Assembly (NCBI GenBank): GCA_964436845.1
Contig: CAYTEF010000001.1
Coordinates: forward strand, 1-49,920
From: an uncultured Candidatus Saccharibacteria bacterium
Lineage (GTDB): Bacteria; Patescibacteriota; Minisyncoccia; 2-01-FULL-47-10; JBBTYX01
Direction of reading: 5' to 3'
DNA: 49,920 nucleotides
Shown here one piece after another: positions 1,640 through 14,477 of the stretch. Position 1 is the stretch's first letter, and every line of letters begins with the position of its first letter. Below the pieces are notes generated by a model that did not search any database, had not been told where the DNA came from, and saw only the letters and a program-made list of their open reading frames with translations. The translations under genes and the position numbers were made by a program.

Positions 1640-2377
1640 TCATTTTAGATTTTTTATAAACCCTACAAGCGGCTCTTCCCAACCAAAACACGTCTTGATC
1701 CCCTCAAGCTCGTGGAAAACTTTCGTACAAGAAGGATCTAATGTCGCGTATTCTTTAAGCATCTGTACAGTTTCCTCTATAAATCCACCCACGGTGCCGT
1801 CGGAATCATCAACACCGCCATAACTCAATTTTTTATCAAGCCGTAACAGCATATCAACGAGTAAGCTTGTCGTTTGCTCGCTTACGGGTAATTCCGAGAT
1901 AATTTTTGATAAACGGCCGCATCCTTCTGAAAGAGAATCCTGATAGGAAAACCAGATTCTGGAGGGGCCATTGTACGGTTTGATATATCGCATGGCGTCA
2001 GTAATTGATTTTTTAGCTGAAGACAGCTCTTTCTTGCTCAACGATCCCAACTTACCGCTGCACATGGGCTGACCGACAAGCCGCTTATCGTCATCGGTAA
2101 GCGGCTTCCCTTTCTTTAGCGCATAAATTGCTACCGCGACCATATGCTTACAAAGGGTATCGTTTTGACCAAGGTAACACTCGCAATTGCCGTGACTATA
2201 TCGGCGCTCATCAACAGACACTCTATACGGCTTTGTCCCAAGAACCACTGCAAAATACGCCCCCATTCCTTCCTCAAACTGCATCACCTTTCCGCTCTCA
2301 TAAAGCCCGACGGCTCTCTCAAACGTCCCTTCATCTGTTGCAAATTTTATTTTGTCCAAGTTAAATTTCTTCTGCAT
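1640..2377 (-). CDS. SWIM zinc-finger domain protein
   Basis: CxCx(n)CxH signature in GNCECYLGQNDTLCKHMVAVAIYAL. An in-frame TAG lies inside the terminal CRISPR repeat, so ATG 2377 is the first possible start. Confidence 0.75.
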   Translation of the reverse strand: MQKKFNLDKIKFATDEGTFERAVGLYESGKVMQFEEGMGAYFAVVLGTKPYRVSVDERRYSHGNCECYLGQNDTLCKHMVAVAIYALKKGKPLTDDDKRLVGQPMCSGKLGSLSKKELSSAKKSITDAMRYIKPYNGPSRIWFSYQDSLSEGCGRLSKIISELPVSEQTTSLLVDMLLRLDKKLSYGGVDDSDGTVGGFIEETVQMLKEYATLDPSCTKVFHELEGIKTCFGWEEPLVGFIKNLK

Positions 2378-2378
2378 A

Positions 2379-3347
2379 ATCTACAAAAGTAGAAATTGGA
2401 TATAGGGATTAGACCGAGTCGTAAATCCGCCTCTCAGATTATCTACAAAAGTAGAAATTGGATATAGGGATTAGACGAAAATGTCAAGCGATTCCAAGCC
2501 GCATCTACAAAAGTAGAAATTGGATATAGGGATTAGACTTTTGAGCAAGCTGAAAGAATAGCCAATCTACAAAAGTAGAAATTGGATATAGGGATTAGAC
2601 TTCAAGTCTATATACTGCAGTCTCAATCTACAAAAGTAGAAATTGGATATAGGGATTAGACTTTTTGGAATAAGTGTGGAAACAGGAATCTACAAAAGTA
2701 GAAATTGGATATAGGGATTAGACATAATTACCACGCTATCAGTGTAGAATATCTACAAAAGTAGAAATTGGATATAGGGATTAGACACTTTAGGATTAAA
2801 AAGTTCCTCATATCTACAAAAGTAGAAATTGGATATAGGGATTAGACCGAGGGGTTATCAGGGGAACTAAACGAGATCTACAAAAGTAGAAATTGGATAT
2901 AGGGATTAGACTTCAGCATCAACTGCGGCGTTGACCATCTACAAAAGTAGAAATTGGATATAGGGATTAGACATAAAAAACTATGCAAAACAATCAACCA
3001 TCTACAAAAGTAGAAATTGGATATAGGGATTAGACACAAACGGGAGGAAACGAAAATGATATATCTACAAAAGTAGAAATTGGATATAGGGATTAGACGT
3101 AAAACAATCACAGTAGAAGCAGATAATCTACAAAAGTAGAAATTGGATATAGGGATTAGACCAAGCATACTCCGATGGGATACAAAGATCTACAAAAGTA
3201 GAAATTGGATATAGGGATTAGACAAAAAATGTTACTGTTGAAGCAGTAGTATCTACAAAAGTAGAAATTGGATATAGGGATTAGACAAACAAGATATTGA
3301 ATCTTGGTTGCATCTACAAAAGTAGAAATTGGATATAGGGATTAGAC
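2379..3347 (-). CRISPR. CRISPR array, type V-A style: 16 repeats of 36 bp, 15 spacers of 25-28 bp
   Basis: Identical repeats (minus-strand reading GTCTAATCCCTATATCCAATTTCTACTTTTGTAGAT) start at 2379, 2441, 2503, 2565, 2626, 2688, 2751, 2812, 2876, 2937, 3000, 3063, 3126, 3188, 3251 and 3312. All spacers are unique. The repeat 3' end forms the TCTAC-TTTT-GTAGA stem-loop typical of the Cas12a crRNA handle. Orientation matches the cas genes. Confidence 0.97.
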
Positions 3348-3533
3348 TGCGGAAATGGCTTTGTTAAGCACTAAAGATACAAATAGCGCTGAAAGAGTCG
3401 CTACGACTTTTTGGCTCAACAAAGCCACTTTTTGTTTTAGGAAATCCATAAAGACAAAGGTTTCCGCAGATAAAATATTGGTCTAATCACGTACACGACA
3501 ATTTCCGCTTTTTCTATTTATTTTTCAAGGCGC
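3348..3533 (-). promoter_or_regulatory. Putative CRISPR leader
   Basis: A 186-bp non-coding gap between the cas2 stop and the cas-proximal repeat. The leader role is inferred from position and orientation. No promoter hexamers could be assigned confidently. Confidence 0.55.
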
Positions 3534-3815
3534 TTACTCAAAGACAATCACGTCTTTTTCCTCATTTTTTGCATAGCCGTAGCGGATTACCTTCTTCTGG
3601 CACGCTTCGCAAAACGGCATAATAACCACGCTATCGGCGTTCCTGAACTGCTTTTTATACCGTAATTCTACCTCACTAATCACATTTTGCAATACCCTTT
3701 GGCTATGCTTTACTTCGTAAACAGAATATTGGATTTTTCGCCCGAATTTCTTCAAGAATTTTGAAAATCTTGCCCGTACATTATTATATTCAAAATCATA
3801 CGACACAATAAGCAT
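3534..3815 (-). CDS. cas2: CRISPR-associated endoribonuclease Cas2
   Basis: 93 aa starting MLIVSYDFE..., with Cas2-like size and ferredoxin-like pattern. It lies immediately downstream of cas1 and upstream of the array. Confidence 0.88.
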   Translation of the reverse strand: MLIVSYDFEYNNVRARFSKFLKKFGRKIQYSVYEVKHSQRVLQNVISEVELRYKKQFRNADSVVIMPFCEACQKKVIRYGYAKNEEKDVIVFE

Positions 3816-3817
3816 GG

Positions 3818-4780
3818 TCAGCGTGAAATCTTAAAATGGGGAAAGGGGTTAGCCTCACTATTCATGAAAAATCGATAGTAGCCTTGCACGTAACGATACA
3901 TCTCTTCCTTATGGTTCATGATTGCCTCAAGAAATACCTGTGCGTATTTCGCGCTATGTTCGAACGAAAGCAAAAGATTCCCATTCCTTTGCTTAAAATC
4001 CTTTTCTTGAATTTTTTTAAGCGTATACAGCTTGAGTACTTCTCTATCAATAATCGCCCTAAACGGCTCAACAATATCGCAAGTAAGAGATTTTCTTTGG
4101 AAAAAAAGTTTATGGTAACACCCTTTATACGTATCAAATCCATAAAGACAAAGTAAAGCGTCAAGAGTGTTGAACATCATCGTATATCCTATATCAAGAA
4201 GGAAATTTGGAATATCTGGCTTTACGCGGGGCATACGCCACGACCACCCGATTGGCCCAAAATATTCCTTAAAAAATTCTTTTGATACATTACCCTCTAT
4301 GCCGCGTAATGAATCCTGTTTTCCTGCACTATCTATTGCTTCCATAATTTCTTTTTCGCGCGCGACGATATTTTCCCCTATTTCCCGCGATTTTAGAAGC
4401 GAAATCTGATTTGCCACTTTATTTTTTACGATTTGCCGCGCGATAAAGAGCTCCTTGTCGTCTTCCAACTCATACTGGCGCATTCTTAAAAGATAGTTGC
4501 CTTCTGATGCCGCGTTTATCGCGGCATAGGGTTCAAAATTATATTTCAAGAGGAAAAATGATACTCCAAGACGTCTTGCCTGCTTAATGAGCTCGCTGGT
4601 GAGCGAAATATCGCCAATGATAAACGCCGCAAATACCCGATGGCACGATGCCCTATTTGCCACTTTATCATCCTTCAAAAACACAATATTATCATTCTGA
4701 AATCTAATTTTATTGGAAACATTACGCTGGGTTTGAATAAAAAGAATCTGCTTTTGTTTGAAATCAGGTAACGTGATCAT
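3818..4780 (-). CDS. cas1: CRISPR-associated endonuclease Cas1
   Basis: The ORF 3818..4834 opens with GTG at 4834, which would overlap cas4 by 46 nt. ATG 4780 (MITLPDFKQKQILFIQ...) avoids the overlap and is preferred. Length of about 320 aa and the position between cas4 and cas2 fit Cas1. Confidence 0.85.
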   Translation of the reverse strand: MITLPDFKQKQILFIQTQRNVSNKIRFQNDNIVFLKDDKVANRASCHRVFAAFIIGDISLTSELIKQARRLGVSFFLLKYNFEPYAAINAASEGNYLLRMRQYELEDDKELFIARQIVKNKVANQISLLKSREIGENIVAREKEIMEAIDSAGKQDSLRGIEGNVSKEFFKEYFGPIGWSWRMPRVKPDIPNFLLDIGYTMMFNTLDALLCLYGFDTYKGCYHKLFFQRKSLTCDIVEPFRAIIDREVLKLYTLKKIQEKDFKQRNGNLLLSFEHSAKYAQVFLEAIMNHKEEMYRYVQGYYRFFMNSEANPFPHFKISR

Positions 4781-4788
4781 AAAGATTT

Positions 4789-5328
4789 TTACCAGCTTAG
4801 CGCGCCGTAAATGCTCATCTCGCATTTTGAACACCGATGCGACAGTAATGTTTTTGGATCAAAATTCCTTATTGCGCTCAATATTTCCTCAAACCTTATT
4901 CGTTCCTTATCGGAAGGAAGCGGGACATCATAGTTTCTATTATCTTCCAGCGAACGTAAAATGAGTTTTTTCACCGGATAGCCCATTTCTTCAAGACAAA
5001 AATATTGCGCGTATAGTTGGCATATATATCCTTCAAAAATCTGTTTAATCCGCGTTTTGCGCTCGATGAGTGTCTGTGTTTGGGTATCATACATGTCAAT
5101 CTTGCCCATAATTTCGTACTTCTGGCTATACACCTCAAGCCCCACAATGAATCGCCGTGCCGTGGAGTAAGTATTTTCATCTATTGCTTCATGGCGCAAC
5201 TTGCCCACCACCTGCGGCTTTTCATGATAGGTTTTTTGTGAAAACCCCTCATACATCCCATGCAAATACAGCGACGCCGGGCAATACAAGAAATCATTTA
5301 TTTTTGAGATTTGGATATAGGGCTCCAT
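4789..5328 (-). CDS. cas4: CRISPR-associated exonuclease Cas4 (RecB-like nuclease)
   Basis: N-terminal Cys in FLYCPASLY, GKIDMYD, LIERKTR (E-x-K), QLYAQY (QxxxY) and C-terminal CSKC. The start overlaps the cas12a stop by one base (TAATG at 5326-5330). Confidence 0.85.
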   Translation of the reverse strand: MEPYIQISKINDFLYCPASLYLHGMYEGFSQKTYHEKPQVVGKLRHEAIDENTYSTARRFIVGLEVYSQKYEIMGKIDMYDTQTQTLIERKTRIKQIFEGYICQLYAQYFCLEEMGYPVKKLILRSLEDNRNYDVPLPSDKERIRFEEILSAIRNFDPKTLLSHRCSKCEMSIYGALSW

Positions 5329-6932
5329 TATTTTTGAACAAATTTATCCCAGTCGTACTCAGAAATATATATATCAGGGTTTCCCGGTCTTGTCGTGATT
5401 GCATCAAGAATCAACTTGCCTTTGCGTGCAATATTATAAGCCCCATTAGCATCGCCGTTAAACTCCTTAATTATTCGCTCTCCTTCGGGTCCTATAATCT
5501 TATTTCTAAAGTTTGCTAAATTTAACGGCGATAAATTGCCATATTTCTCGCTCTTAGCATAGGTACTAAAAAATGGTCTGACGGGTGAAGCAATAAAATC
5601 TATGTCTTCGCCTACTGACTTTATTCTTGTCTCGCCGCGTTCATCTTCATAACTTTCCCATTTCTCAGAGAAAGAATTGCGAATCTGCATTACTATGTTA
5701 AACAAATAAATAAAAGCGTGGTAAAAACTTCGCTCTCTGCCATCTATTACATACTTTTCCTCTAATTCCCCATCTTGGATTTTACGACATATTTCATCAT
5801 GCAAATCTGCTGCTTGCGGATCTTCAAATTCCCATAGCCTAAATAACTCCCCGAATTTTTCATTTACATCTATAGGCGTATATTGCCAATAACCTTTCTC
5901 GTCTTTTTCGCGCCTAATACGTGGAACTTTTGCGTATACTGTCCAGCCCTTTTGCGGAGAATACACGATATTCTTATATCTTTCCTCCACAAAATTTTTA
6001 GGATTATAAGTAAAAAAGTAGCTTTGCTCTTCTTCACCCCATCCGATGGCATCAAATTTTTCTATCGTTTCTTTTATCTTCTTCTGCGATGCAGAATTGC
6101 TAACGTATACATTCTTGCGAAAACCGGTCAAAGGATCAGTGCCTGAAGTATACTCGGCTTGTGTATAGAAAATAATGCCGGTTTGCTTGCCCATTTTTTC
6201 AAATGATACAAAGGGAGCAGTCAATTGATAACCCTTTAAAACCCCGCCAAATTCATGCGATTGTCGATTCTTGAAGATCAAATAACCAAATTTATCTATC
6301 AGTTGTTTTTCCAGTTGCTGATATACGCTCCGTTCAATACCGCCGCGAATTTGTTTAAAGCGCATATTCAGATCCTCCATTACCACAATGGCGTTATAAT
6401 GAATTGCGAAGTCGGCTATTTTCCGAACAACCTGGGAAACATACCCTTTCTTAATATCTTTAATTTTTGCTACTGGACTCCACGATTGCCTATTTCGTAA
6501 GCGTTCCTTCTCACAATTTACGAGTTTATCTCTATAGTTCTGGCCATTTATTTCATTCAAACTACCTTGGTCAAGAATTTCGCCGTTTTGATTGATAATC
6601 GAATAGTACACCAAGTGCTTCTCGCCACGATCAAGACCAATAATATTGACTTTATTTTGTCTCGCGTACTTTGCTAATTCAACTCTTATATTTTTATTGT
6701 ATCCACCAACAAAAGGCAATAATTTTCTTTCCGACATTTGTGGCTTCCTTGCGGCATAGTTCAATATAATGGAAAGGTGTAAAAAATATTTTCTTTCTGT
6801 GTATCTATTATAAACAAATTTGATTACCCTGAATTTATCTCTTAAGAACTTTGTTATATCTTTACCTTTTTCTTTCGTAAGGATATGTTTAGGATTATCC
6901 TTAATACTCTTGGTAAATTCTCGTAGAAACAT
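5328..6932 (-). CDS. cas12a: Cas12a (Cpf1) C-terminal fragment: WED-III, RuvC and Nuc
   Basis: RuvC-I IIGLDRGEKHLVYY, RuvC-II VVMEDLNMRFKQ, TDPLTGF, QIRNS, DFIASPV and RuvC-III GDANGAYNIARKG. Cas12a-like sequence in this frame continues upstream of the first ATG to 7014 (KNIHTFYFEQLFSEQNLKDPIFKISGGSE). Confidence 0.9.
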   Translation of the reverse strand: MFLREFTKSIKDNPKHILTKEKGKDITKFLRDKFRVIKFVYNRYTERKYFLHLSIILNYAARKPQMSERKLLPFVGGYNKNIRVELAKYARQNKVNIIGLDRGEKHLVYYSIINQNGEILDQGSLNEINGQNYRDKLVNCEKERLRNRQSWSPVAKIKDIKKGYVSQVVRKIADFAIHYNAIVVMEDLNMRFKQIRGGIERSVYQQLEKQLIDKFGYLIFKNRQSHEFGGVLKGYQLTAPFVSFEKMGKQTGIIFYTQAEYTSGTDPLTGFRKNVYVSNSASQKKIKETIEKFDAIGWGEEEQSYFFTYNPKNFVEERYKNIVYSPQKGWTVYAKVPRIRREKDEKGYWQYTPIDVNEKFGELFRLWEFEDPQAADLHDEICRKIQDGELEEKYVIDGRERSFYHAFIYLFNIVMQIRNSFSEKWESYEDERGETRIKSVGEDIDFIASPVRPFFSTYAKSEKYGNLSPLNLANFRNKIIGPEGERIIKEFNGDANGAYNIARKGKLILDAITTRPGNPDIYISEYDWDKFVQK

Positions 6933-6967
6933 TTCCGATCCTCCGGAGATTTTGAAAATAGGATCTT

Positions 6968-9427
6968 TTAAATTTTGTTCAGAAAAAAGTTGTTCAAAAT
7001 AAAACGTGTGAATATTTTTTTAGATGCTGGCTTTTTAAATTCTTCCCAATCCTTATTCTTAAGAAGAAATAGGTATAGACTACCACTTTTGAGTTTATCT
7101 TCTACCTGACTTTTATCCATTGGTATAAATGCATTTTCCGAGTATATTTCAATGCATACATCATTAACCGCTTTAGTAAATTCCTTTTTACTTTGAAACT
7201 TTCCATCGACTAATGATTGTAGACCAGGGTGCTTTTTGAGATGCCGTTCTCTGATAAATTGTTGAGCATCCATGATTGCTCGACTTTCATCTTTCTGTTC
7301 CGTATATTGATAACCAAATATAGGTTTGAACGCCTTATTAATGATATTTTGAAACTTTAATTGCGATGCCGGAAAATAAAGATAATCGCTCATCTTTTTG
7401 ATTCCCACTTTTTCATCTAATTCACGTTCACCTTTTTTAAGCACTCCGAGATAGAATTTATCTCTTCCGTTTATCATGCTCTTAAATAAATAAGAATTGT
7501 ATTGTTTTGAAAAGCCCTGAAGTAGAGTATCTTTCTCGAAATTAAGCTTTATCTTATTTTCGTCAAATGGCTTCTTGGTTATATAGTTTCGGAAAGCATT
7601 ATAATACTTGATAAGTTGAAAATCCTTAGCGTACGGTTCTAACTGCGCATAAAACTCTGTGCTAATATCCGTAAGTTTAGCCATATCAAGTTCATCCAGG
7701 GCCAAATATTTCATCATTTGATAAATACGCAAAGCGGCATCGGCGTAATTTTTAACTTTCGCAATTTCGTCTTTTTTACGCGCCTTAGAAAAATGTTTCA
7801 GTGTACATGCTTCTTTTAAACGACTATCGTAGCCATAAATAATGATACCATCTTCTCTTGTAGTATCAGTAAACAAGCCTTCAAATTCATACTTCCACAT
7901 GCTTAGAAATTGTTTCCATGGCTGATGATCTTGCCGAATAACGCCTTTTCTATAAAAATCCTCTCTAAAAGGTCTATCCTCCAGTCTTTCAATGGCCTCT
8001 TTTATGTCAGAAATCGTCACAAACTTTTTTACCTTAATCACATCGTTTTCCTTTTTATTTGAGGAGACCTGTGGCAAGTTCCTTTCAAAATCATAACCAC
8101 TCGCAAACCAGCGGCGTGAAATAGTATTGATAGTAGAATTTCTTACATAGATCCTCTCGTATTCTGATGCAAATTCCTTATCAATAAGGAATACCTGCAT
8201 AAATTTCTTAGCAGCATCAAATCGCACCTCATTTGCTGCTATAAATTCCTTGAATCTTTCAATAAAAATTTCTTCTTCTGTTTTTTCTTCAGTAGCCTCT
8301 ATAAGCTGTGCTTGCTGCTCTATCTCGCCCAAAATTTGTTTCTCAAGAGTCCTGAAAGTAGGAAAATTGCTTTTCTTAAAATCACCCTTTGCCGTTTTTG
8401 CTTCGCTGATTTTTTTATCCCCGTACTCTTTTATGACTTTATTTATGCGCCCAATGACTTTATTGTAAGAATTATCGCTGTCCTCTGCACCTTCTAGCGC
8501 TTCAATATTTTTCTGCAAAAGATACTTACTGTAATTTTCTACTTTGAAAATGTCAGCTTGCTCAAGACCAATCTCTTGAAAATTATCTTTATACTTTTCG
8601 TCAAAAATCCTTGCATTTGCTGAAAACAAATCAAAATTACTCACGATGCGAGTGGCTAACGCAGTTGCCATACCATTATCCGCGTAAACATTTTTGCGCG
8701 TCGCTTGAAATTTCGTTAGGTAGCCGGAAAAACGATCAAAGCTATCAAAAATATACCGTCGTTTGTTTGGGTTTTCGCTTTCCTCTACAAATAAACTCGG
8801 CCAGCCCAGTTTTTTGTATTCCACGTCCTTTGATGCGGGGAACTCGTATTTAAGTATTTGTAGAACGCCCGCCGATGTAAGAAATCCGACCCCTTTTTCA
8901 TTTTCCCTTTCTTCGTTGTTGTTATTTCTCTTCCCAAAATTAATTGCACTCCCATCTTCCAATTTTTTGCCAAAATAATATTTTTTCCATTCGCCTGCCT
9001 GGCGATTAAACAAATTGACGATTTGTTTATAAAAATCTTCCTTTGTGTCCTGTACCTTTTTTCCAAGGCTATTTATTTCCTTTTGTATGGAATCAGTCGC
9101 TTCCCTTTTCTCTCGTGCCAATCGCAGCACGATTCGTTTTTCATTAAGCTTTTTCTTTATTCCTTGCAAAAATTGTGCAAATGCGCGAAAATCCAGCTCC
9201 GCTACCTCATCGGGAGCTAATGCAGTATCTATAAATCTCTGATGGAGTTTATCAAAGTAAAACTTTGCTTGGCTATAACTATCGTCAATAGTTTTATCTT
9301 TCTCAAAAACTTTATTCTCCTTTAAAAATTGTTCAGTTTCTCCCACCGGTTTTAACTCAAATCTCAACGTTTTAGAAAGCTGATATTTTCCAACAAATTG
9401 ATTAAAAATACTTTCTCCATTAATCAT
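6968..9427 (-). CDS. cas12a: Cas12a (Cpf1) N-terminal fragment: WED-I/II, REC lobe and PI
   Basis: The N-terminus FVGKYQLSKTLRFELKPVGETEQFL is the Cas12a signature. ...SLYLFLLKNKDWEEFKKPASKK then runs out of frame and stops at 6968. Confidence 0.9.
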   Translation of the reverse strand: MINGESIFNQFVGKYQLSKTLRFELKPVGETEQFLKENKVFEKDKTIDDSYSQAKFYFDKLHQRFIDTALAPDEVAELDFRAFAQFLQGIKKKLNEKRIVLRLAREKREATDSIQKEINSLGKKVQDTKEDFYKQIVNLFNRQAGEWKKYYFGKKLEDGSAINFGKRNNNNEERENEKGVGFLTSAGVLQILKYEFPASKDVEYKKLGWPSLFVEESENPNKRRYIFDSFDRFSGYLTKFQATRKNVYADNGMATALATRIVSNFDLFSANARIFDEKYKDNFQEIGLEQADIFKVENYSKYLLQKNIEALEGAEDSDNSYNKVIGRINKVIKEYGDKKISEAKTAKGDFKKSNFPTFRTLEKQILGEIEQQAQLIEATEEKTEEEIFIERFKEFIAANEVRFDAAKKFMQVFLIDKEFASEYERIYVRNSTINTISRRWFASGYDFERNLPQVSSNKKENDVIKVKKFVTISDIKEAIERLEDRPFREDFYRKGVIRQDHQPWKQFLSMWKYEFEGLFTDTTREDGIIIYGYDSRLKEACTLKHFSKARKKDEIAKVKNYADAALRIYQMMKYLALDELDMAKLTDISTEFYAQLEPYAKDFQLIKYYNAFRNYITKKPFDENKIKLNFEKDTLLQGFSKQYNSYLFKSMINGRDKFYLGVLKKGERELDEKVGIKKMSDYLYFPASQLKFQNIINKAFKPIFGYQYTEQKDESRAIMDAQQFIRERHLKKHPGLQSLVDGKFQSKKEFTKAVNDVCIEIYSENAFIPMDKSQVEDKLKSGSLYLFLLKNKDWEEFKKPASKKIFTRFILNNFFLNKI
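7015..7021 (-). other. cas12a: Frameshift site in cas12a (A7 homopolymer on the coding strand)
   Basis: The coding strand reads GCA TCT AAAAAAA TAT TCA CAC. With 8 A the reading would be ...PASKKNIHTFYF..., continuous with the downstream Cas12a frame. With 7 A the frame ends 15 codons later. Confidence 0.85.
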
Positions 9428-9468
9428 AAGAATGAAGGTGATTTAATAAAATCCTCCAAAGAAAAACT

Positions 9469-9546
9469 AAAAAAGGACGACGGTTGTCGCCCAACAGATA
9501 TTGCTTACCAAACGGTTAAGCGCTATTGGAACCGTCGCCCTTTTTT
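9469..9546. terminator. Terminator-like hairpin flanked by A6 and T6, in the cas12a upstream region
   Basis: GGACGACGGTT (9475-9485) pairs with AACCGTCGCCC (9530-9540). A compact alternative pairs 9475-9481 with 9486-9492. An A-run at 9469-9474 and a T-run at 9541-9546 give a U-tract on either strand. Confidence 0.45.
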
Positions 9547-9607
9547 AATCTCAAGGGCAACAAAATTCCGTTTGGCAACAAAACACATCTGTTTAAGCGA
9601 CGCTATC

Positions 9608-9635
9608 ATTATACGCATTGACGGAAAAAAGTCAA
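9608..9635 (-). promoter_or_regulatory. Candidate sigma70-type promoter for cas12a
   Basis: The minus strand reads TTGACT (9635-9630), a 16-nt spacer, then TATAAT (9613-9608). This predicts a 5' UTR of about 170 nt. Confidence 0.5.
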
Positions 9636-9688
9636 ATTTGCCTTGATACATTTACGGCGAAACGGCAGCCGCAAATAGGCGTTCAGTA

Positions 9689-9717
9689 TTGACTTTTGTA
9701 TAGGGTGGCGGTAATAT
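9689..9717 (+). promoter_or_regulatory. Candidate promoter divergent from cas12a
   Basis: TTGACT (9689-9694), a 17-nt spacer, then TAATAT (9712-9717). An overlapping perfect TATAAT lies at 9715-9720. Confidence 0.45.
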
Positions 9718-9723
9718 AATTGT

Positions 9724-9781
9724 ATCACGATGGGAGCAGGTTCATAAGGTGCCGTCCTTATGCAATTGGCTCCCGTTTTTT
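9724..9781 (+). ncRNA. Candidate small RNA of about 55-60 nt: a single long hairpin plus U-tract
   Basis: It lies downstream of the 9689-9717 promoter. GGGAGC (9732-9737) pairs with GCTCCC (9769-9774), and inner CATAAGG (9744-9750) pairs with CCTTATG (9756-9762). T6 follows at 9776-9781. There is no plus-strand ORF to terminate. Confidence 0.35.
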
Positions 9782-9839
9782 ATTGCCTTTTTTGCCCGCT
9801 TTTTGAAGGCGTTTTTTTCACTCAAAAGTGAACGTGTGT

Positions 9840-11522
9840 CTACCGCAACGGCGAACCGGTGGGATAGCGGTCAAGGTCCTGTTGGGTACTAAGAACTTCT
9901 ACATTTTCCCACTTCAATTTTCTTCGGGCAAAGGCTTTCTCATCTTTTACCCACTGCTTGACGCCATTTTTTAGGAAATAAACCCGATAATCATTTACAT
10001 AGCGGATTAAGCGGTCGCGCGTACTTTGTTCCTTTTGTTTTGCAACACTTATTCCGCGGCCAATGCAGTAAACCGGATCATCGCAGTTAATGTCTAAAAT
10101 AACACCGTCAATGTCTTTACGGAGCGCTGAATTCTCTTCTTCTTCCAAAGTCACATAAAGAATAAAATTCTTTCCCGCGCCGTCCGTCCAGTAGCCGTAA
10201 AGAAGCCCGTCTGTTGGCTGGGCAGGGAAACTTCCTTCAATGCTTCGTTTGCGGCTCTGGCCTTCGCGCTGATTGCCCGCCTGACTCACAAGCGCTGTTT
10301 TTAACTTTGCCCATATATTTTCGCGGCGGTGCGAAAGTTCCTCTTGCATTAAAGGATCACTGCCCACCTCGTCAAAATACGCCTTAAGGTATCCGTCAAC
10401 GCGCGAAAGATCGCTTACGCGTTTAGAATCGCGCGAACTTGTACGCTTGCCTGATGCGTCCTCGGTTACATAGTGAATAGTAAGCTCTCGCAAAATAGAC
10501 GTTACATTGGGACTGGAAGAAGAAAAGACTGCTTTCCAGCGAAGCTCTCTGCCCGTGGTAGAAAAAAGCACGCGCTCGCCTGCATTGCCGCTAAACCAAT
10601 GATCGCCATTATCAGGAGAAAAAAGATAGGTAAGCGAGCTTCCCGAAGGAGTTGAGGCATCGTGAGAGAGGGTTAATTCCACCACATCAAAAGTACCGCG
10701 GGCGCGAATCGTGCGCGATTCTACCGACATGCCTGCCCCATATCCATTATCCTGAATTAAAAATACTTCCTTACCATCGGCAATGATCATGCCTCCGCCT
10801 GAAACGTCTGTCTCAAGGGAGTGAATACCAAAGTCAACGCGAGGCACCTGTCCAAAGACATTTACCAGGATTAAGCCGTCAAAGTAGGAAAGATTTCTCC
10901 CACCTCCTGAAAAAAACCACGCATTTCCCGACCATGCAACTTGCGTGCGCGAAGAGACGCGTAATTCTTTAAGCTCGTTATTTGCTTCCTCGCGCCACAC
11001 CCCGGACCGGAAGGAGAAAAAGCGCGCGGGAGAAATAGTATAAATTACCAAAAATTCATTGGAATTTTTTACTCCAATGGAAAATGATCCCAATCGCTTG
11101 TCAGAAAAAAGCGAAGGGGAATGAAGGAGTGTTGCTTTTCCTGCCTCAATCAAATAGATACGACCCACCCAGTCTTTTGAAATTTCATCGCGCGAAAATC
11201 CAAAAAGCAACACACCCGAAGGAGTAACTTTGCAGCCGATATTTCGCTCAAGTAAAGTAAGATTATGATCGCTTATGAGCTTTTTTGCATCGCACATAAA
11301 TTTCTCAAGCGCGGAGAGGGGAAGTTGGCGCGCGCCATAGGTACGGCTTGCTATAACGCGCCGCCCCAATGAATCGTACCAAGCCGAGGTAAAATTAAAA
11401 TCAAGCGATCCCGGAGATCGTAAGCTCTGACTAACCGTAAATTCCTCGCGAAAAACGCTCTTTGCGGGGAGAGCTAAAAATATTCCTATAAAAACAAGGA
11501 AGAGCAGGGTATATCTTTTCAT
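9840..11522 (-). CDS. Hypothetical secreted protein (560 aa)
   Basis: Long ORF with an N-terminal signal-like segment MKRYTLLFLVFIGIFLALPAKS. No domain was recognised. Confidence 0.7.
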   Translation of the reverse strand: MKRYTLLFLVFIGIFLALPAKSVFREEFTVSQSLRSPGSLDFNFTSAWYDSLGRRVIASRTYGARQLPLSALEKFMCDAKKLISDHNLTLLERNIGCKVTPSGVLLFGFSRDEISKDWVGRIYLIEAGKATLLHSPSLFSDKRLGSFSIGVKNSNEFLVIYTISPARFFSFRSGVWREEANNELKELRVSSRTQVAWSGNAWFFSGGGRNLSYFDGLILVNVFGQVPRVDFGIHSLETDVSGGGMIIADGKEVFLIQDNGYGAGMSVESRTIRARGTFDVVELTLSHDASTPSGSSLTYLFSPDNGDHWFSGNAGERVLFSTTGRELRWKAVFSSSSPNVTSILRELTIHYVTEDASGKRTSSRDSKRVSDLSRVDGYLKAYFDEVGSDPLMQEELSHRRENIWAKLKTALVSQAGNQREGQSRKRSIEGSFPAQPTDGLLYGYWTDGAGKNFILYVTLEEEENSALRKDIDGVILDINCDDPVYCIGRGISVAKQKEQSTRDRLIRYVNDYRVYFLKNGVKQWVKDEKAFARRKLKWENVEVLSTQQDLDRYPTGSPLR

Positions 11523-11605: not shown

Positions 11606-12385
11606 ATGAAATTACCCGAACATTTAGCAAGCAGCATGCAGAAATACTGGGATAAGCAAGAATCGCTATTTAAAGAAATAAAAAAGGCCGGCGGAATTAA
11701 TACCTACGTTAACTCCTTTGAAAAAAAGGGTGGGTTATTTACGCTGGAAAATCGTTCCGTTTGCTGTATAGATGAACGAACGACGCAAGGAAAAATCCAT
11801 TACGCGGGTTCGGGTATTCTTGATAGAGATCAGGCAATTAATCGTATAAAAAATATAGAAGCCGATGGCGTTTATAGCCACGAAGAATGCGGAGCCGCGG
11901 CCTTGGCATTTAAAGGCCTCTCGGAAGAGGAAAAGGAGAAATTTCAAACCCCTGAAGCATACGCGAAGTGGTGGGCAGAGCATGTTTCAAAAGAGCTCGG
12001 TATTCCTTATAAAGGACACCTGGAGACACATCCCAAATTCCACATCGCGCGCGTGAGCTATTATGACGGCACCGGACGATTTGATCCTTCGCAATCTGAT
12101 AAGCTTCCGCCGGGATTTTTGATAAGCCGCGCGTACCTTGACCCTGAATATGCGGCAAAGGAATTGGATTTAAGTGTCGCTATCGCCTTTGGCAAGGACG
12201 CTTTTGGAAAAGAAAAATTTATTGAATCGCCTTTCCTCATTATCCCTGTCGCGGATAAAGAAAGTTCCCACCTCACCCTTGAAATGCTTAAAGAAGAAGC
12301 GCAAAAGATCGCAAAAAATTATGAAGGGAAGGTAATTGTTGACGGATTGAGTGTTGATCTTGCCTCTCTTTTGCAAAAACCATGA
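11606..12385 (+). CDS. Hypothetical protein with beta-carbonic-anhydrase-like CxDxR and HxxCG motifs
   Basis: VCCIDERT and, 38 residues later, SHEECGAAA. The ORF-track start at 11564 is TTG and lies inside the promoter, so ATG 11606 (MKLPEHL...) is preferred. The stop overlaps the next gene (ATGA). Confidence 0.6.
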   Translation: MKLPEHLASSMQKYWDKQESLFKEIKKAGGINTYVNSFEKKGGLFTLENRSVCCIDERTTQGKIHYAGSGILDRDQAINRIKNIEADGVYSHEECGAAALAFKGLSEEEKEKFQTPEAYAKWWAEHVSKELGIPYKGHLETHPKFHIARVSYYDGTGRFDPSQSDKLPPGFLISRAYLDPEYAAKELDLSVAIAFGKDAFGKEKFIESPFLIIPVADKESSHLTLEMLKEEAQKIAKNYEGKVIVDGLSVDLASLLQKP

Positions 12386-13494
12386 GACTCATGGAAATTG
12401 AGGGGAAAAAACTTTTTGAGAAGTATGGCATTGCCATTCCTCAAGGCATACTCGCTAACGGGAAAGAGCGCCTTGCCCCGCTTGCCTCACCCGCCGTCAT
12501 TAAAGCACAGACGCTTTCGGGAAATCGCAAAAAAGAAGGCGGTATTTTTTTTGCGCGCGATACGCGAATGGCGCAAAGAGGCATTGCAAAAATCATAGGA
12601 AAAACCATCAGCGGAGAAAAAGTAAGGGAAGTGCTGGTTGAAGAAAAAATTTCTGCCGTAAAAGAATATTACATAGGCATCAGCTACGACACCGACGAAA
12701 GAGGACCCGTCCTTTTACTTTCACCCAAAGGCGGATCAGGTGTGACGAAGGCAAAAGCGATTCCCATTCATTTCAGCCTGGGCGTTCCTCCTTTTTTCTT
12801 GCGCGCGGCTTTAAAGGAGGCAGGGTTTTCCCTTGATGATGCTTCGGGCATTATTCCAGTTATTCAAAAATTATGGAAATTATTCTTGAATGAATATGCG
12901 CTTCTTGCCGAAATTAATCCCCTCTTTAAAACGAAAAAAGGAGACTTCATCGCCGGGGATGCAAAAATTATTTTGGACGATGAAAAGGTGAAGCCGGGCG
13001 AAAGACGATTTATTGAAATGGGAGGAAACATCGCGATTTTGGCTTCCGGTGGGGGCGCTTCACTCTTAAATATTGACGCACTCATGGGACACGGGGGAAA
13101 GCCGGCAAATTATACGGAGTATTCGGGAAATCCAAAAGGAGAAGTGGTAAGAGAACTTACTAAGCGCGTTTTAAATAAAGAAGGATTAAAAGGATGCTGG
13201 GTGGTGGGAGGAACGGCAAACTTTACCGACATTCATGAAACGATGAAGGGATTCGTGGAAGGGTTGCGCCAAGTTACACCAAAGCCCTCATACCCCATTG
13301 TTATCCGCCGCGACGGACCAAGGCAAAAGGAAGCGTTTGAAATGTTAAGTCAAGCGGCAAAAGAAGAAGGATATCAGTTTTACCTTTTTGGAGGCGAGAC
13401 GGCGATGGCTCAGACGGCGAGGATTATGGTGAAGTTGGCATATGATGATTCAAAGCGTAAAGCGAAAAGCGAAAAGCGTAAAATAATAACGTAA
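12382..13494 (+). CDS. sucC: Succinyl-CoA synthetase beta-like ATP-grasp subunit (possible citryl-CoA synthetase large subunit)
   Basis: N-terminus MEIEGKKLFEKYGIAIP, LAEINPL, and GNIAILASGGGASLLNIDALMGHGGKPANYTEYSG, which matches the SucC CoA-ligase region. Confidence 0.8.
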   Translation: MRLMEIEGKKLFEKYGIAIPQGILANGKERLAPLASPAVIKAQTLSGNRKKEGGIFFARDTRMAQRGIAKIIGKTISGEKVREVLVEEKISAVKEYYIGISYDTDERGPVLLLSPKGGSGVTKAKAIPIHFSLGVPPFFLRAALKEAGFSLDDASGIIPVIQKLWKLFLNEYALLAEINPLFKTKKGDFIAGDAKIILDDEKVKPGERRFIEMGGNIAILASGGGASLLNIDALMGHGGKPANYTEYSGNPKGEVVRELTKRVLNKEGLKGCWVVGGTANFTDIHETMKGFVEGLRQVTPKPSYPIVIRRDGPRQKEAFEMLSQAAKEEGYQFYLFGGETAMAQTARIMVKLAYDDSKRKAKSEKRKIIT

Positions 13495-13562
13495 AACTAA
13501 AAATATTTTTAATTTTGCATCGTTGCTTTGCATTTTTCGTTTTTCGCTTTACACTTAAATTC

Positions 13563-14477
13563 ATGAGCATCTTAATAGACGAAAAAACAAACGTATTGAT
13601 CCAGGGAATCACGGGCAATGAGGGTTCGCGCGCGTGCCGCGAGATTCTTTTATATGGAACAAAGGTACGCGCAGGGGTTACGCCGGGAAAAGCGGGACAA
13701 AAAGTGCATCGTGTTCCGGTCTATGATACAATCAAGGAAGCATTGAAAAAGTATCCTGATATTAATACCTCGCTCATCGCGGTTCCGGCAGCATTTGTAA
13801 AAGATGCCGCAATGGAGGCGATATGGAATAAAATTCCTTTAATTGATATTCTAACCGAGCACGTGCCCACCGAGGATAGTGCCATGATCCTTGCATTCGC
13901 TCGCGAACGCGGAATGCGCCTTGTGGGGCCTGCTTCCGTTGGCATCATCTCTCCGGAAAAAGCAAAAGTGGGAAGTATTGGAAGCTCGGAAGTTGAGAAA
14001 GTATTTAAAAAAGGAGGGATCGGCGTTGTCTCAAAGAGTGGGGGCATGACCGCAGAAATCGCCTCTATTCTTACGCGGGCAGGGTTTGGACAGAGTACGG
14101 TGGTGGGAATAGGGGGAGACCAGATTATAGGATCTGATTTTTGCGATATCCTTGAACTATTTGAAAAAGACAGCGAGACAAAAGCGGTTGTCATGTTTGG
14201 AGAAATTGGCGGCACATACGAGGAAAAGGCGGCAGAATATATTCGCGAAGGGAAGTATAGCAAGCCAGCGGTTGCCATTATTGCAGGAAAATTTACTTCA
14301 TACCTCCCAAAGGAAACCGTGCTGGGCCACGCGGGCGCTATAGTGGCAAAAGGCCGCGGCAGTTATGCGTCAAAGGTGAGCGCGTTAAAGCGCGCCGGGG
14401 TGCTTATGGCAAAAACATTGGAGGAAATTCCCATACTTTTAAAGAAGGTACGTTATGAAGTGGCGAACATCCATTAG
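13563..14477 (+). CDS. sucD: Succinyl-CoA synthetase alpha-like subunit (possible citryl-CoA synthetase small subunit)
   Basis: MSILIDEKTNVLIQGITGNEG, GVVSKSGGMT, GQSTVVGIGGD and the phosphohistidine loop LGHAGAIV. ATG 13563 is preferred over the ORF-track start at 13515. Confidence 0.85.
   Translation: MSILIDEKTNVLIQGITGNEGSRACREILLYGTKVRAGVTPGKAGQKVHRVPVYDTIKEALKKYPDINTSLIAVPAAFVKDAAMEAIWNKIPLIDILTEHVPTEDSAMILAFARERGMRLVGPASVGIISPEKAKVGSIGSSEVEKVFKKGGIGVVSKSGGMTAEIASILTRAGFGQSTVVGIGGDQIIGSDFCDILELFEKDSETKAVVMFGEIGGTYEEKAAEYIREGKYSKPAVAIIAGKFTSYLPKETVLGHAGAIVAKGRGSYASKVSALKRAGVLMAKTLEEIPILLKKVRYEVANIH

What the first reader, a model, noticed from the sequence alone, without database searches (positions are those of the whole stretch)
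2379..9427. Complete single-effector type V-A CRISPR-Cas locus (cas12a-cas4-cas1-cas2-array) with no tracrRNA
Four co-oriented minus-strand genes precede 16 identical 36-bp repeats. The large effector has the Cas12a N-terminal signature (YQLSKTLRFELKPVGET). It carries one RuvC-like nuclease domain (IGLDRGE, MEDLN, DANGAYNIARKG) plus the QIRNS Nuc region, and no HNH domain. The repeat ends in AATTTCTACTTTTGTAGAT, which is the 5'-handle hairpin of Cas12a crRNAs. I found no extended anti-repeat in the flanks, consistent with tracrRNA-independent processing. The family is already known, so novelty would lie in this lineage's variant and the unusual neighbours and lesions described separately.
Basis: partly seen in the sequence, partly recalled or inferred. 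Interest (0 to 1): 0.8.

Follow-up and report, generated by a model that had tools for sequence, protein, structure and literature searches.

The report
Cas12a CRISPR locus, broken effector, conserved leader RNA
This is an ordinary type V-A (Cas12a) CRISPR-Cas locus from a candidate-phyla-radiation bacterium whose effector gene is broken by a one-base frameshift; the unexpected part is a conserved, apparently undescribed structured RNA with a terminator just upstream of cas12a that probably controls its transcription.

Summary
There are 16 identical 36-nt repeats at 2379-3347. Their transcribed (minus-strand) sequence ends in the Cas12a handle AAUUUCUACUUUUGUAGAU. Upstream on the same strand lie cas2, cas1, cas4 and cas12a. 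Curated profiles confirm type V-A: the repaired protein scores 525 bits on TIGR04330 (cut-off 300), and type V Cas4, type V Cas1 and Cas2 also match. No anti-repeat exists.

"Complete" is only partly right. cas12a is split into 819-aa and 534-aa ORFs by an A7 run (7015-7021). Adding one A restores a 1366-aa protein that aligns with intact relatives (at most 60% identity). A second public assembly carries the same A7. Twenty neighbouring genes are intact. The lesion is therefore probably real and recent, but read-level data are needed.

Homologues lie just upstream of cas12a, on its strand, in 22 related loci. Covariation is strong (24 of 28 pairs have compensatory changes). The RNA has two mutually exclusive folds, and one of them forms an intrinsic terminator 21-67 nt before the start codon. 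It has no Rfam or literature match and is neither a tracrRNA nor a CreR. I read it as a riboswitch-like attenuator of the cas operon; its trigger is unknown.

The parts
2379..3347 (-). CRISPR array: 16 identical 36-nt repeats and 15 spacers (25-28 nt). The leader-proximal end is at 3347.
   Evidence: handle hairpin; the same 3' handle, on the strand of cas12a, in 59 of 80 related loci
3348..3533 (-). CRISPR leader. Its last ~80 nt are conserved and carry covarying inverted repeats (GGCTTTGTTGAGCC ... GCTTAACAAAGCC, with an inner hairpin flanked by AAGTCGT and ATTTGTATCT).
3534..3815 (-). cas2 (93 aa)
   Evidence: PF09827 and TIGR01573; identical protein in four other public assemblies or runs
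3818..4834 (-). cas1, type V (PREFRAN) subtype. The longest ORF starts at GTG 4834; the likely true start is the ATG at about 4780.
   Evidence: TIGR04329, 325.9 bits against a cut-off of 300, profile match from residue 24; PF01867
4789..5328 (-). cas4, type V subtype (179 aa)
   Evidence: TIGR04328, 194 bits against a cut-off of 70
5328..6932 (-). cas12a, C-terminal ORF (534 aa): RuvC-I/II/III and Nuc, with all catalytic motifs intact. An ATG at 6932 is preceded by GGAGG 7 nt upstream.
   Evidence: PF18516 and PF18510; covers PADLOC Cas12a model positions 716-1145 of 1147; motif alignment
7015..7021 (-). Frameshift site: an A7 run (T7 on the + strand). One extra A gives ...KKPASKKNIHTFYFEQLF... 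and a 1366-aa ORF.
   Evidence: the same A7 in ENA contig k139_283000
6968..9427 (-). cas12a, N-terminal ORF (819 aa): WED-I, REC lobe and a short PI region
   Evidence: PF18501; covers PADLOC Cas12a model positions 2-683 of 1147
9469..9601 (-). Conserved cas12a leader RNA (~133 nt). 5' strand a 9601-9584; P2 hairpin 9558-9537; terminator 5' strand b 9545-9532; e 9531-9525; P4 hairpin 9521-9503; c 9503-9486; terminator 3' strand d 9483-9470; U-tract 9474-9469.
9608..9635 (-). Sigma-70-type promoter TTGACT-16-TATAAT (11 of 12 matches). It places the transcription start at about G9601. A promoter at the same position is present in the related loci.

Best explanation
This is a canonical type V-A CRISPR-Cas module (leader RNA, cas12a, cas4, cas1, cas2, CRISPR leader, array) carried as a low-GC island in a Patescibacteria (Parcubacteria-like) genome.

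As in other V-A systems, Cas4-Cas1-Cas2 would insert spacers next to the leader. The array would be transcribed from the leader. Cas12a would cut the pre-crRNA itself just upstream of the repeat hairpin, so no tracrRNA is needed. It would then use a single RuvC site to cut PAM-flanked DNA. These steps are inferred from family membership.

In this genome cas12a carries a one-base contraction of an A8 run to A7, which splits the gene. As encoded, the effector is absent or crippled. Everything else is intact, so the lesion is recent.

Transcription of the cas operon starts at a conserved promoter. It must pass a conserved ~133-nt leader RNA that can fold in two ways. In one fold, strands b and d form an intrinsic terminator whose hairpin also contains helices P5 and P4. 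In the other fold, the 5' end (a) pairs with c and hairpin P2 sequesters b, which leaves the terminator strand d free. I infer that this leader is a conditional transcription attenuator of cas12a. The signal that sets the switch is unknown.
For: Family membership:
- The repaired protein scores 525 bits on TIGR04330 (cut-off 300). Cas4 and Cas1 match the type V models and Cas2 matches its model.
- Pfam finds REC1, RuvC_1 and NUC.
- All 26 PDB sequence matches are Cas12a-family proteins, with E-values down to 2e-96.
- D933, E1018, D1326 and R1250 are invariant in 23 homologues.
- The repeat handle is present, and the same architecture occurs in 59 of 80 related loci.
- There is no anti-repeat.

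Frameshift:
- locate it and show the repair.
- The two ORFs cover consecutive parts of one Cas12a profile.
- An identical A7 is present in an independent ENA contig.
- Twenty neighbouring genes are full length although the window holds 76 homopolymer runs.

Host and island:
- YchF is 76% identical to a Candidatus Portnoybacteria protein.
- The island is 34-39% GC against 43-48% elsewhere.

Leader RNA:
- There is one sense copy per locus in 23 of 93 sources, always directly upstream of cas12a. Scores are 58-100 bits, against 18-33 bits antisense.
- 97.2% of cells are paired, 24 of 28 pairs have changes on both sides, and 0 of 500 shuffles reach this.
- For the 5'-3' helix P1, cognate partners give -11.6 kcal/mol against -6.2 for non-cognate partners, with 0 of 20000 permutations as good.
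- A conserved promoter puts the 5' end at GTCGC.
- In 18 of the 20 loci measured, only 21-67 nt separate the terminator from the ATG.
- The fold without the terminator is 2-9 kcal/mol more stable than the terminator fold in most loci.
Against: - No protospacer was found, so the PAM and the targets are unverified.
- The pre-crRNA RNase residues (equivalents of Fn H843, K852 and K869) cannot be aligned confidently. Only a subclade motif, HI[ILF]TK, is conserved.
- No Pfam PI-domain hit is found in this protein or its closest relatives.
- The frameshift lies in a homopolymer, and both assemblies may derive from overlapping reads.
- For the leader, P1 and the terminator helix P3 could in principle coexist as a pseudoknot. 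The RNA would then be a constitutively terminated small RNA rather than a switch.
- No ligand or binding partner is identified, and no expression data exist.
Confidence: 0.85

Rival explanations
1. The frameshift is an assembly or sequencing error in a homopolymer. The real genome has A8 and a fully functional, complete V-A system.
For: The lesion is exactly one base in an A-run. The downstream 534-aa frame has no further defect and keeps all catalytic motifs. cas1, cas2, cas4 and all 16 repeats are perfect.
Against: The same A7 occurs in a separately assembled contig named in MEGAHIT style (k139_283000), which is 100% identical over 5457 bp. None of 20 neighbouring genes is split, although the window holds 76 comparable homopolymer runs.
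Confidence: 0.3
2. The A7 run is bypassed or reversible. Transcriptional slippage, -1 ribosomal slippage on A AAA AAA, or replication slippage (phase variation) would yield some full-length Cas12a.
For: A -1 shift at the run restores the conserved frame exactly. From general knowledge, poly-A runs of this length are known slippage sites in bacteria.
Against: The run is not conserved. Relatives encode xKNIHT with A5 and an uninterrupted frame, so this is not a programmed recoding site. No downstream stimulatory structure was looked for. From general knowledge, A7 is shorter than the runs that slip efficiently.
Confidence: 0.15
3. The two ORFs make a functional two-piece Cas12a. The second piece would be translated from ATG 6932, using the GGAGG that lies 7 nt upstream.
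For: There is an SD-like GGAGG and an ATG 35 nt after the stop of the first ORF. The REC/WED half and the RuvC/Nuc half would be produced separately.
Against: About 30 residues of a highly conserved WED segment would be missing, including invariant Y810 and nearly invariant H807. The GGSEM codons also occur in intact relatives, so they reflect protein sequence and are not an evolved restart signal. No relative has this split; the homologues listed are single proteins.
Confidence: 0.05
4. The conserved upstream RNA is a stand-alone, trans-acting small RNA gene that always terminates. It would not be a cis-acting switch.
For: It has its own promoter and a strong U-tract terminator. P1 and P3 both covary and might stack as a pseudoknot.
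Against: In 18 of the 20 loci measured, only 21-67 nt separate the terminator from the cas12a ATG. That leaves no room for a second promoter, so cas12a must be read through the element. Two strands have covarying alternative partners: c pairs with a or with e, and b pairs with d or with the P2 5' strand. No cognate-specific target was found in the repeat or the array leader.
Confidence: 0.25
5. The upstream RNA is a guide-type RNA: a tracrRNA or scoutRNA that pairs with the repeat, or a CreR-like mini-CRISPR that directs Cas12a to its own promoter.
For: Its position upstream of the effector gene is where tracrRNAs and V-A CreR genes are found (bioRxiv 10.1101/2023.03.10.532045, read).
Against: It contains no UCUAC...GUAGA handle, and the window has such handles only inside the array. 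Its complementarity to the cognate repeat is no better than to non-cognate repeats. The published V-A CreR shares 20 consecutive nucleotides with the repeat; this RNA shares none.
Confidence: 0.03

Closest known systems
Type V-A CRISPR-Cas (Cas12a/Cpf1; NCBIfam PREFRAN subtype; FnCas12a, AsCas12a and LbCas12a are the studied examples)
   Same: The gene order cas12a-cas4-cas1-cas2-array is the same. The repeat is 36 nt and ends in AAUUUCUACUNUUGUAGAU. Spacers are 25-28 nt. There is a single RuvC site with D/E/D plus the Nuc arginine, no HNH domain and no tracrRNA.
   Different: The effector ORF is frameshifted. The region between YLGVL and LYLF is about 125 aa, and no Pfam PI-domain model hits it. 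The segment that should hold the RNase residues is divergent. The PAM is unknown.
Cas12a of Candidatus Saccharibacteria MAG contig CAYTHZ010000015.1 (P0001; loci L002/L003), the closest intact relative
   Same: The protein is 60% identical over its full length, and the operon order is the same. Its repeat matches the window repeat at 38 of 39 aligned bases. It has the same upstream leader RNA (99.8 bits).
   Different: Its reading frame is intact (1390 aa), with AAAAAT instead of the A7 run at the homologous site. Its neighbouring genes are different.
CreR, the cas-regulating mini-CRISPR upstream of Moraxella bovoculi cas12a (bioRxiv 10.1101/2023.03.10.532045)
   Same: It is a small RNA gene immediately upstream of cas12a that is proposed to set effector expression.
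   Different: CreR is crRNA-like, with a degenerate repeat carrying the 5' handle plus a pseudo-spacer that matches the promoter, and it acts through Cas12a binding to DNA. The RNA here has no repeat-like handle. It has a two-state fold with an intrinsic terminator and would act in cis on transcription elongation.
Riboswitches and transcription attenuators in which a terminator competes with an anti-terminator (general knowledge, for example T-box leaders and terminator-embedded aptamers)
   Same: It has a promoter-proximal conserved fold, covarying helices, strands with two alternative partners, a U-tract terminator just before the regulated ORF, and conserved unpaired nucleotides.
   Different: It matches none of the 4227 Rfam families. 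It is found only in front of cas12a, whereas metabolite riboswitches usually serve a regulon. The effector is unknown.

Membership tests
Type V-A CRISPR-Cas (Cas12a) | Effector matches the Cas12a-specific equivalog profile above its curated cut-off | tested here: met
   TIGR04330 scores 525 bits against a cut-off of 300 on the repaired 1366-aa sequence. Pfam REC1, RuvC_1 and NUC hit the two ORFs. The ORFs cover PADLOC Cas12a model positions 2-683 and 716-1145.
Type V-A CRISPR-Cas (Cas12a) | Single RuvC-like nuclease with D/E/D catalytic residues plus the Nuc arginine; no HNH domain | tested here: met
   D933 (IGLDRGE), E1018 (MEDLN), D1326 (DANGAY) and R1250 (QIRNS) are invariant in 23 homologues. 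No HNH family is hit.
Type V-A CRISPR-Cas (Cas12a) | Uninterrupted effector reading frame | tested here: not met
   The A7 run at 7015-7021 shifts the frame, giving ORFs of 819 and 534 aa. The same sequence is in ENA contig L001.
Type V-A CRISPR-Cas (Cas12a) | Repeat ends in the UCUAC-N(3-5)-GUAGAU stem-loop on the strand of cas12a | tested here: met
   The repeat differs by 1 nt from that of L015, and 59 of 80 related loci have the same handle.
Type V-A CRISPR-Cas (Cas12a) | No tracrRNA: no anti-repeat in or near the locus | tested here: met
   The longest antisense match to the repeat in 49.9 kb is 10 nt. The conserved upstream RNA shows no cognate-specific pairing with the repeat.
Type V-A CRISPR-Cas (Cas12a) | Adaptation module cas4-cas1-cas2 with type V Cas4 and Cas1 | tested here: met
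   TIGR04328 scores 194 bits (cut-off 70), TIGR04329 325.9 bits (cut-off 300) and TIGR01573 48.6 bits (cut-off 24.5).
Type V-A CRISPR-Cas (Cas12a) | WED-domain RNase residues for pre-crRNA processing (equivalents of Fn H843, K852, K869) | tested here: inconclusive
   In the HMMER alignment to FnCas12a, H843 falls opposite D844, with a His four residues later (H848). A motif HI[ILF]TK...DIT.FL is conserved only in the nearest subclade.
Type V-A CRISPR-Cas (Cas12a) | 5' T-rich PAM next to protospacers | not testable with these tools
   No exact protospacer was found. All 15 spacers were searched by BLAST against the phage collection, six spacers as exact patterns in IMG/VR, and one spacer in JGI metagenomes. 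Only 23/27 near-matches to a conserved coding motif turned up.
Type V-A CRISPR-Cas (Cas12a) | Mature crRNAs of about 42-44 nt starting in the repeat | not testable with these tools
   No transcriptome data are available.
CreR (cas-regulating mini-CRISPR) | Degenerate repeat carrying the crRNA 5' handle, followed by a pseudo-spacer that matches the cas promoter | tested here: not met
   No TCTAC...GTAGA occurs outside the array on either strand of the window. The definition is taken from the preprint read.
tracrRNA / scoutRNA | Complementarity to the cognate repeat that tracks repeat variation | tested here: not met
   Duplex energies of the upstream RNA against the repeat are -13.3 (cognate) and -12.4 (non-cognate) kcal/mol, with 502 of 5000 permutations as good.
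Transcription attenuator / riboswitch-like leader | Conserved secondary structure supported by compensatory changes | tested here: met
   24 of 28 pairs have changes on both sides, 97.2% of cells are paired, and 0 of 500 shuffles reach this; slid controls give 30-58% paired. For P1, cognate against non-cognate pairing gives 0 of 20000 permutations as good.
Transcription attenuator / riboswitch-like leader | Intrinsic terminator between the promoter and the regulated ORF, with no room for a second promoter | tested here: met
   The P3 stem has up to 14 bp and is followed by T5-T7. It lies 21-67 nt from the ATG in 18 of the 20 loci measured. The conserved promoter lies upstream.
Transcription attenuator / riboswitch-like leader | Mutually exclusive alternative pairings that include the terminator strand | tested here: inconclusive
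   Strand c pairs with a (P1) or with e (P5), and strand b pairs with d (P3) or with the P2 5' strand. The nested minimum-free-energy fold leaves d free. A P1+P3 pseudoknot cannot be excluded by computation.
Transcription attenuator / riboswitch-like leader | A defined ligand, protein or RNA that shifts the equilibrium | not testable with these tools
   No candidate was identified.

The most novel reading that the evidence does not exclude
A clade of Patescibacteria type V-A systems, this one included, gates transcription of cas12a (and with it cas4-cas1-cas2) through a previously undescribed leader RNA of about 105-155 nt. The leader toggles between an anti-terminated rod (5' end paired to the 3' region) and a long intrinsic-terminator hairpin. 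That would make it a riboswitch-like or factor-responsive attenuator dedicated to a class 2 CRISPR effector. It would be mechanistically distinct from the known guide-RNA-based autoregulators (CreR, long-form tracrRNA).
Probability: 0.5. Interest if true: 0.75.

Novelty: new member of a known kind. Interest (0 to 1): 0.45.

Why it matters
The CRISPR system itself adds only one more divergent Cas12a (at most 60% identity to any other) from an uncultured lineage. It has a recent inactivating lesion, which is useful mainly as a natural example of CRISPR loss in a reduced genome.

The leader RNA matters more. If it is a conditional terminator, it would be the first dedicated cis-acting RNA switch known for a Cas12a operon. 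It would give a handle on how candidate-phyla-radiation bacteria decide when to pay for CRISPR immunity. The 23 covarying sequences make this directly testable through in-line probing, termination assays and reporter fusions with and without Cas12a or crRNA. The element is also a compact, portable regulatory part that sits next to a genome-editing nuclease.

Tried and rejected
1. Spacer targets and PAM. All 15 spacers were run by BLAST against 50,697 phage records with no match. Exact scans of IMG/VR with spacers S1, S3, S5, S7, S8 and S10, and of JGI metagenomes with S3, found nothing. A degenerate S2/S4 pattern hit 11 viral contigs, but only at 18-23 of 27 positions. This reflects a conserved coding motif (K-T/V-I/V-T-V-E-A), not protospacers.

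2. Looking for an A8 allele. A pattern scan of JGI metagenomes allowing A5-A9 found nothing. Other public contigs of the same clone do not reach the site.

3. Self-targeting spacers. No extended spacer match appeared in the visible part of the BLAST output, where the longest was 12 nt. The output was cut, so this check is incomplete.

4. Neighbours as accessory genes. The 560-aa secreted protein (9840-11522) and the SWIM protein (1640-2377) occur in none of 80 related loci.

5. Leader RNA as a tracrRNA, as a CreR, or as a partner of the array leader. All three were rejected. An apparent 10-nt complementarity to the window's array leader lies in a hairpin arm that varies between loci.

6. Leader peptide. 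Short ORFs inside the leader are not conserved in frame or length between the window, L003 and L017 (read directly from the sequences).

7. A local hairpin GGGCGAC-AACC-GTCGTCC as the real terminator. This was rejected because L046, L056 and L065 keep the b:d pairing but not c:d (sequences).

8. My own recollection that the His in NLHTLYW is the RNase catalytic residue. Residue counting against FnCas12a chains showed this was wrong: H843 lies 39 residues further on. The frameshift therefore removes a conserved WED segment, not the catalytic triad.

9. Known RNA families. There is no Rfam hit near gathering score, no IMG/VR copy of the core motif and no paper containing the core sequence.

Full report
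**What is there.** The window is a whole 49,920-bp public contig: the 819-aa ORF is on record from a contig of exactly that length. Between 2379 and 3347 lie 16 exact copies of a 36-nt repeat with 15 spacers of 25-28 nt. On the minus strand the repeat reads GTCTAATCCCTATATCCAATTTCTACTTTTGTAGAT. Its last 15 nt form the UCUAC/GUAGA hairpin. Upstream on the same strand are a 186-nt leader, cas2, cas1, cas4 and two ORFs that together make cas12a.

Curated profiles leave no doubt about the family. The repaired effector scores 525 bits on TIGR04330 (cut-off 300). Cas4 and Cas1 hit the type V-specific models, and Cas2 hits its equivalog. Pfam finds the Cpf1-specific REC1, RuvC_1 and NUC domains and no HNH. 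All 26 PDB sequence matches are Cas12a-family proteins, with E-values down to 2e-96. In an alignment with 22 homologues, the RuvC D/E/D residues and the Nuc arginine are invariant. Fifty-nine of the 80 most similar loci in GTDB genomes have an array with the same 3' handle downstream on the strand of cas12a. One of them (L015) has a repeat that differs by a single base.

**No tracrRNA.** The best antisense match to the repeat anywhere in the window is 10 nt. The only repeat-type hairpins are those of the array.

**The effector gene is broken.** The 819-aa ORF ends in ...KKPASKKIFTRFILNNFFLNKI*. The conserved continuation NIHTFYFEQLF...KISGGSEMFLRE is in the -1 frame. The shift happens in an A7 run at 7015-7021. 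Inserting one A gives a 1366-aa protein that aligns without a gap to the intact relatives across the junction. Relatives have AAAAAT at this site and an open frame. The run is therefore a lineage-specific A8 that lost one base, not a conserved recoding signal.

PADLOC's Cas12a profile is covered at positions 2-683 by the first ORF and 716-1145 by the second. As encoded, about 30 residues of a conserved WED segment are lost. I first assumed that this segment held the pre-crRNA RNase histidine. Counting residues against FnCas12a chains showed that Fn H843 lies 39 residues further on, inside the second ORF. The RNase region is divergent here, and only a subclade motif, HI[ILF]TK, is conserved.

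**Is the lesion real?**
- A separately assembled ENA contig (ERZ27284378, k139_283000) is 100% identical over 5457 bp, including the A7.
- Contigs from three more assemblies or runs are also 100% identical to the window but do not reach the site.
- Twenty neighbouring genes match their Pfam profiles end to end, although the window holds 76 comparable homopolymer runs.

I put about 0.7 on a genuine, recent mutation. Everything else in the locus is intact, down to 16 perfect repeats. Only the reads can settle this.

**Host and setting.** YchF at 243-1127 is 76% identical to a Candidatus Portnoybacteria protein, and the next named hits are other Parcubacteria. The closest Cas12a proteins come from Saccharibacteria and other Patescibacteria MAGs, at no more than 60% identity. 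The CRISPR module has 34-39% GC against 43-48% for the rest of the contig. Neither flanking gene recurs next to cas12a elsewhere. The module is a horizontally acquired island.

**Spacers.** No protospacer was found in phage records, IMG/VR or JGI metagenomes, so the PAM remains unknown. Spacers S2, S4 and S6 are related to one another. They resemble (at up to 23 of 27 positions) a coding motif in several IMG/VR contigs, which suggests repeated sampling of one gene in related viruses. The first four spacers are identical in a second sample.

**A conserved RNA upstream of cas12a.** The 412-nt region upstream of cas12a holds the best promoter match in the scanned region, TTGACT-16-TATAAT at 9635-9608. 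It also holds a terminator-like hairpin followed by T6 at 9492-9469.

BLAST of this spacer against the related loci gave an unexpected result. About 95 nt are 77-92% identical upstream of cas12a in more than 20 loci whose Cas12a proteins are only 27-60% identical.

A covariance model of the 76-nt 3' domain finds exactly one copy in 23 of 93 sources (1.34 Mb searched). Every copy is on the cas12a strand and directly upstream of the gene. Scores are 58-100 bits, against 18-33 bits for the reverse strand. On the model alignment, 97.2% of cells are paired and 24 of 28 pairs show changes on both sides. No shuffle out of 500 reaches this, and slid controls give 30-58% paired.

In every locus inspected, a -35/-10 pair sits so that transcription starts at a conserved GTCGC.

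**The helices.**
- P3: AAAAAGGGCGACGG pairs with CCGTCGTCCTTTTT. This is the terminator.
- P5: TTCCAAT pairs with ATTGG.
- P4: GCTTAACC pairs with GGTAAGC.
- P2: a hairpin whose 3' strand overlaps the 5' strand of P3.
- P1: the 5' end, GTCGCYCAATAGATATG, pairs with CATATCTATTGGGCGAC immediately before the terminator's 3' strand.

P1 forms 16-24 bp in 18 of the 19 loci of the first set. Its variable part pairs far better with its own partner than with those of other loci: -11.6 against -6.2 kcal/mol, with 0 of 20000 permutations as good. L056 shows clean compensatory changes in both P1 and P3.

P1 and P5 use the same ATTGG strand, and P2 and P3 use the same GGGC strand. Longer variants carry an extra segment complementary to P4. 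Nested folding puts the minimum at P1+P2 with the terminator's 3' strand free. The terminator fold is 2-9 kcal/mol higher in most loci.

The terminator ends 21-67 nt before the cas12a ATG in 18 of the 20 loci measured. That is too close for a second promoter, so cas12a must be transcribed through this element.

**What the RNA is not.** It has no repeat-like handle, and its pairing with the cognate repeat or array leader is no better than with non-cognate ones. It is therefore not a tracrRNA, a scoutRNA or a CreR mini-CRISPR as described for Moraxella bovoculi Cas12a (bioRxiv 10.1101/2023.03.10.532045). It matches no Rfam 15 family, and IMG/VR holds no copy of its core. Searches of the held papers for regulatory RNAs near cas12a, and for the core sequence itself, turned up nothing like it.

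**Mechanism.**
- Shown by sequence analysis: the family membership of all five proteins, the repeat structure, the frameshift, and the promoter, fold and terminator of the leader RNA.
- Inferred from established V-A biology: spacer acquisition by Cas4-Cas1-Cas2, self-processing of pre-crRNA, and RuvC cleavage of PAM-flanked DNA.
- Inferred from the anatomy: the leader is a conditional attenuator. When the 5' strand pairs with c and P2 holds b, the polymerase reads through. When the 5' strand is unavailable, P5, P4 and P3 form and transcription stops.

What controls the 5' strand is unknown; it could be a metabolite, a protein such as Cas12a itself, or another RNA. The main rival is a constitutively terminated small RNA in which P1 and P3 stack as a pseudoknot.

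**Verdict.** The finding as written is a correct identification of a known system with an understated defect, and is of low novelty. The locus earns a moderate score only because of the conserved leader RNA, which is well supported as a structure and appears to be undescribed.

Noticed in passing
window 3348-3533 (minus strand); homologous leaders in L006, L012, L015, L019, L020, L005, L008, L082: The CRISPR array leader is itself conserved across loci. It carries covarying inverted repeats: GGCTTTGTTGAGCC ... GCTTAACAAAGCC, enclosing AAGTCGT, a variable hairpin and ATTTGTATCT, and ending in ATTTCCGC next to the first repeat. It could be an integration-site or promoter structure.
   Followed up: partly
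window 2973-3250 (spacers S2 3250..3224, S4 3125..3099, S6 2999..2973): Three spacers are related to one another. S2 and S4 align over 22 nt, and S4 and S6 share a 10-nt stretch (TGATTGTTTT). Their reverse complements encode K-T/V-I/V-T-V-E-A. IMG/VR contigs L086, L090 and L093 match S4 at 23 of 27 positions. This suggests repeated acquisition from one gene of related viruses.
   Followed up: partly
window 1640-2377 (minus strand): A 245-aa SWIM zinc-finger protein starts 1 nt after the last repeat. Its first 90 residues match the N-terminus of the 566-aa PADLOC candidate defence protein PDC-S62 (E = 4.6e-15). It is absent from all 80 related V-A loci.
   Followed up: partly
window 6932-6947 (minus strand): A GGAGG lies 7 nt upstream of the ATG that opens the C-terminal cas12a ORF, and 35 nt after the stop of the N-terminal ORF. 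It is a by-product of the conserved SGGSEM codons, which are also present in intact relatives, but it could allow re-initiation.
   Followed up: partly
window 12382-15186: Three adjacent genes resemble ATP-citrate lyase / citryl-CoA synthetase-lyase: ATP-grasp_2 with Citrate_bind, CoA_binding with Ligase_CoA, and the Citrate_synt C-terminal domain. They are followed by a cluster of at least 14 polysaccharide biosynthesis genes that runs to at least 31.7 kb. This is unusual metabolic content for a Patescibacteria contig.
   Followed up: no
window 2000-10000 compared with the rest: The CRISPR-Cas module is a low-GC island (34.5-39% against 43-48%). It lies about 2 kb from a tRNA-Ile gene (165-237).
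   Followed up: partly
L028 7652-7695: A solitary repeat-like handle (GGATTTCTACTTTTGTAGAT) followed by unique sequence lies about 330 nt upstream of cas12a in a Gracilibacteria locus that lacks the leader RNA. It is a candidate CreR-type mini-CRISPR.
   Followed up: no
L004 6729-7997: In one Saccharibacteria locus a ~1.2-kb ORF sits between the leader RNA and cas12a. There the leader would control that gene as well.
   Followed up: no
window 9840-11522 (minus strand): A 560-aa protein with an N-terminal signal-peptide-like segment has no Pfam, NCBIfam or PADLOC match. It lies immediately upstream of the cas12a promoter and is not found in related loci.
   Followed up: partly
repaired Cas12a residues ~660-785 (window ~7070-7450): The region between YLGVL and LYLF, where the PAM-interacting domain lies, is about 125 aa. 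From memory it is roughly 215 aa in AsCas12a. No Pfam PI-like model hits it, and none hits the closest relatives either. PAM preference may differ from TTTV.
   Followed up: no
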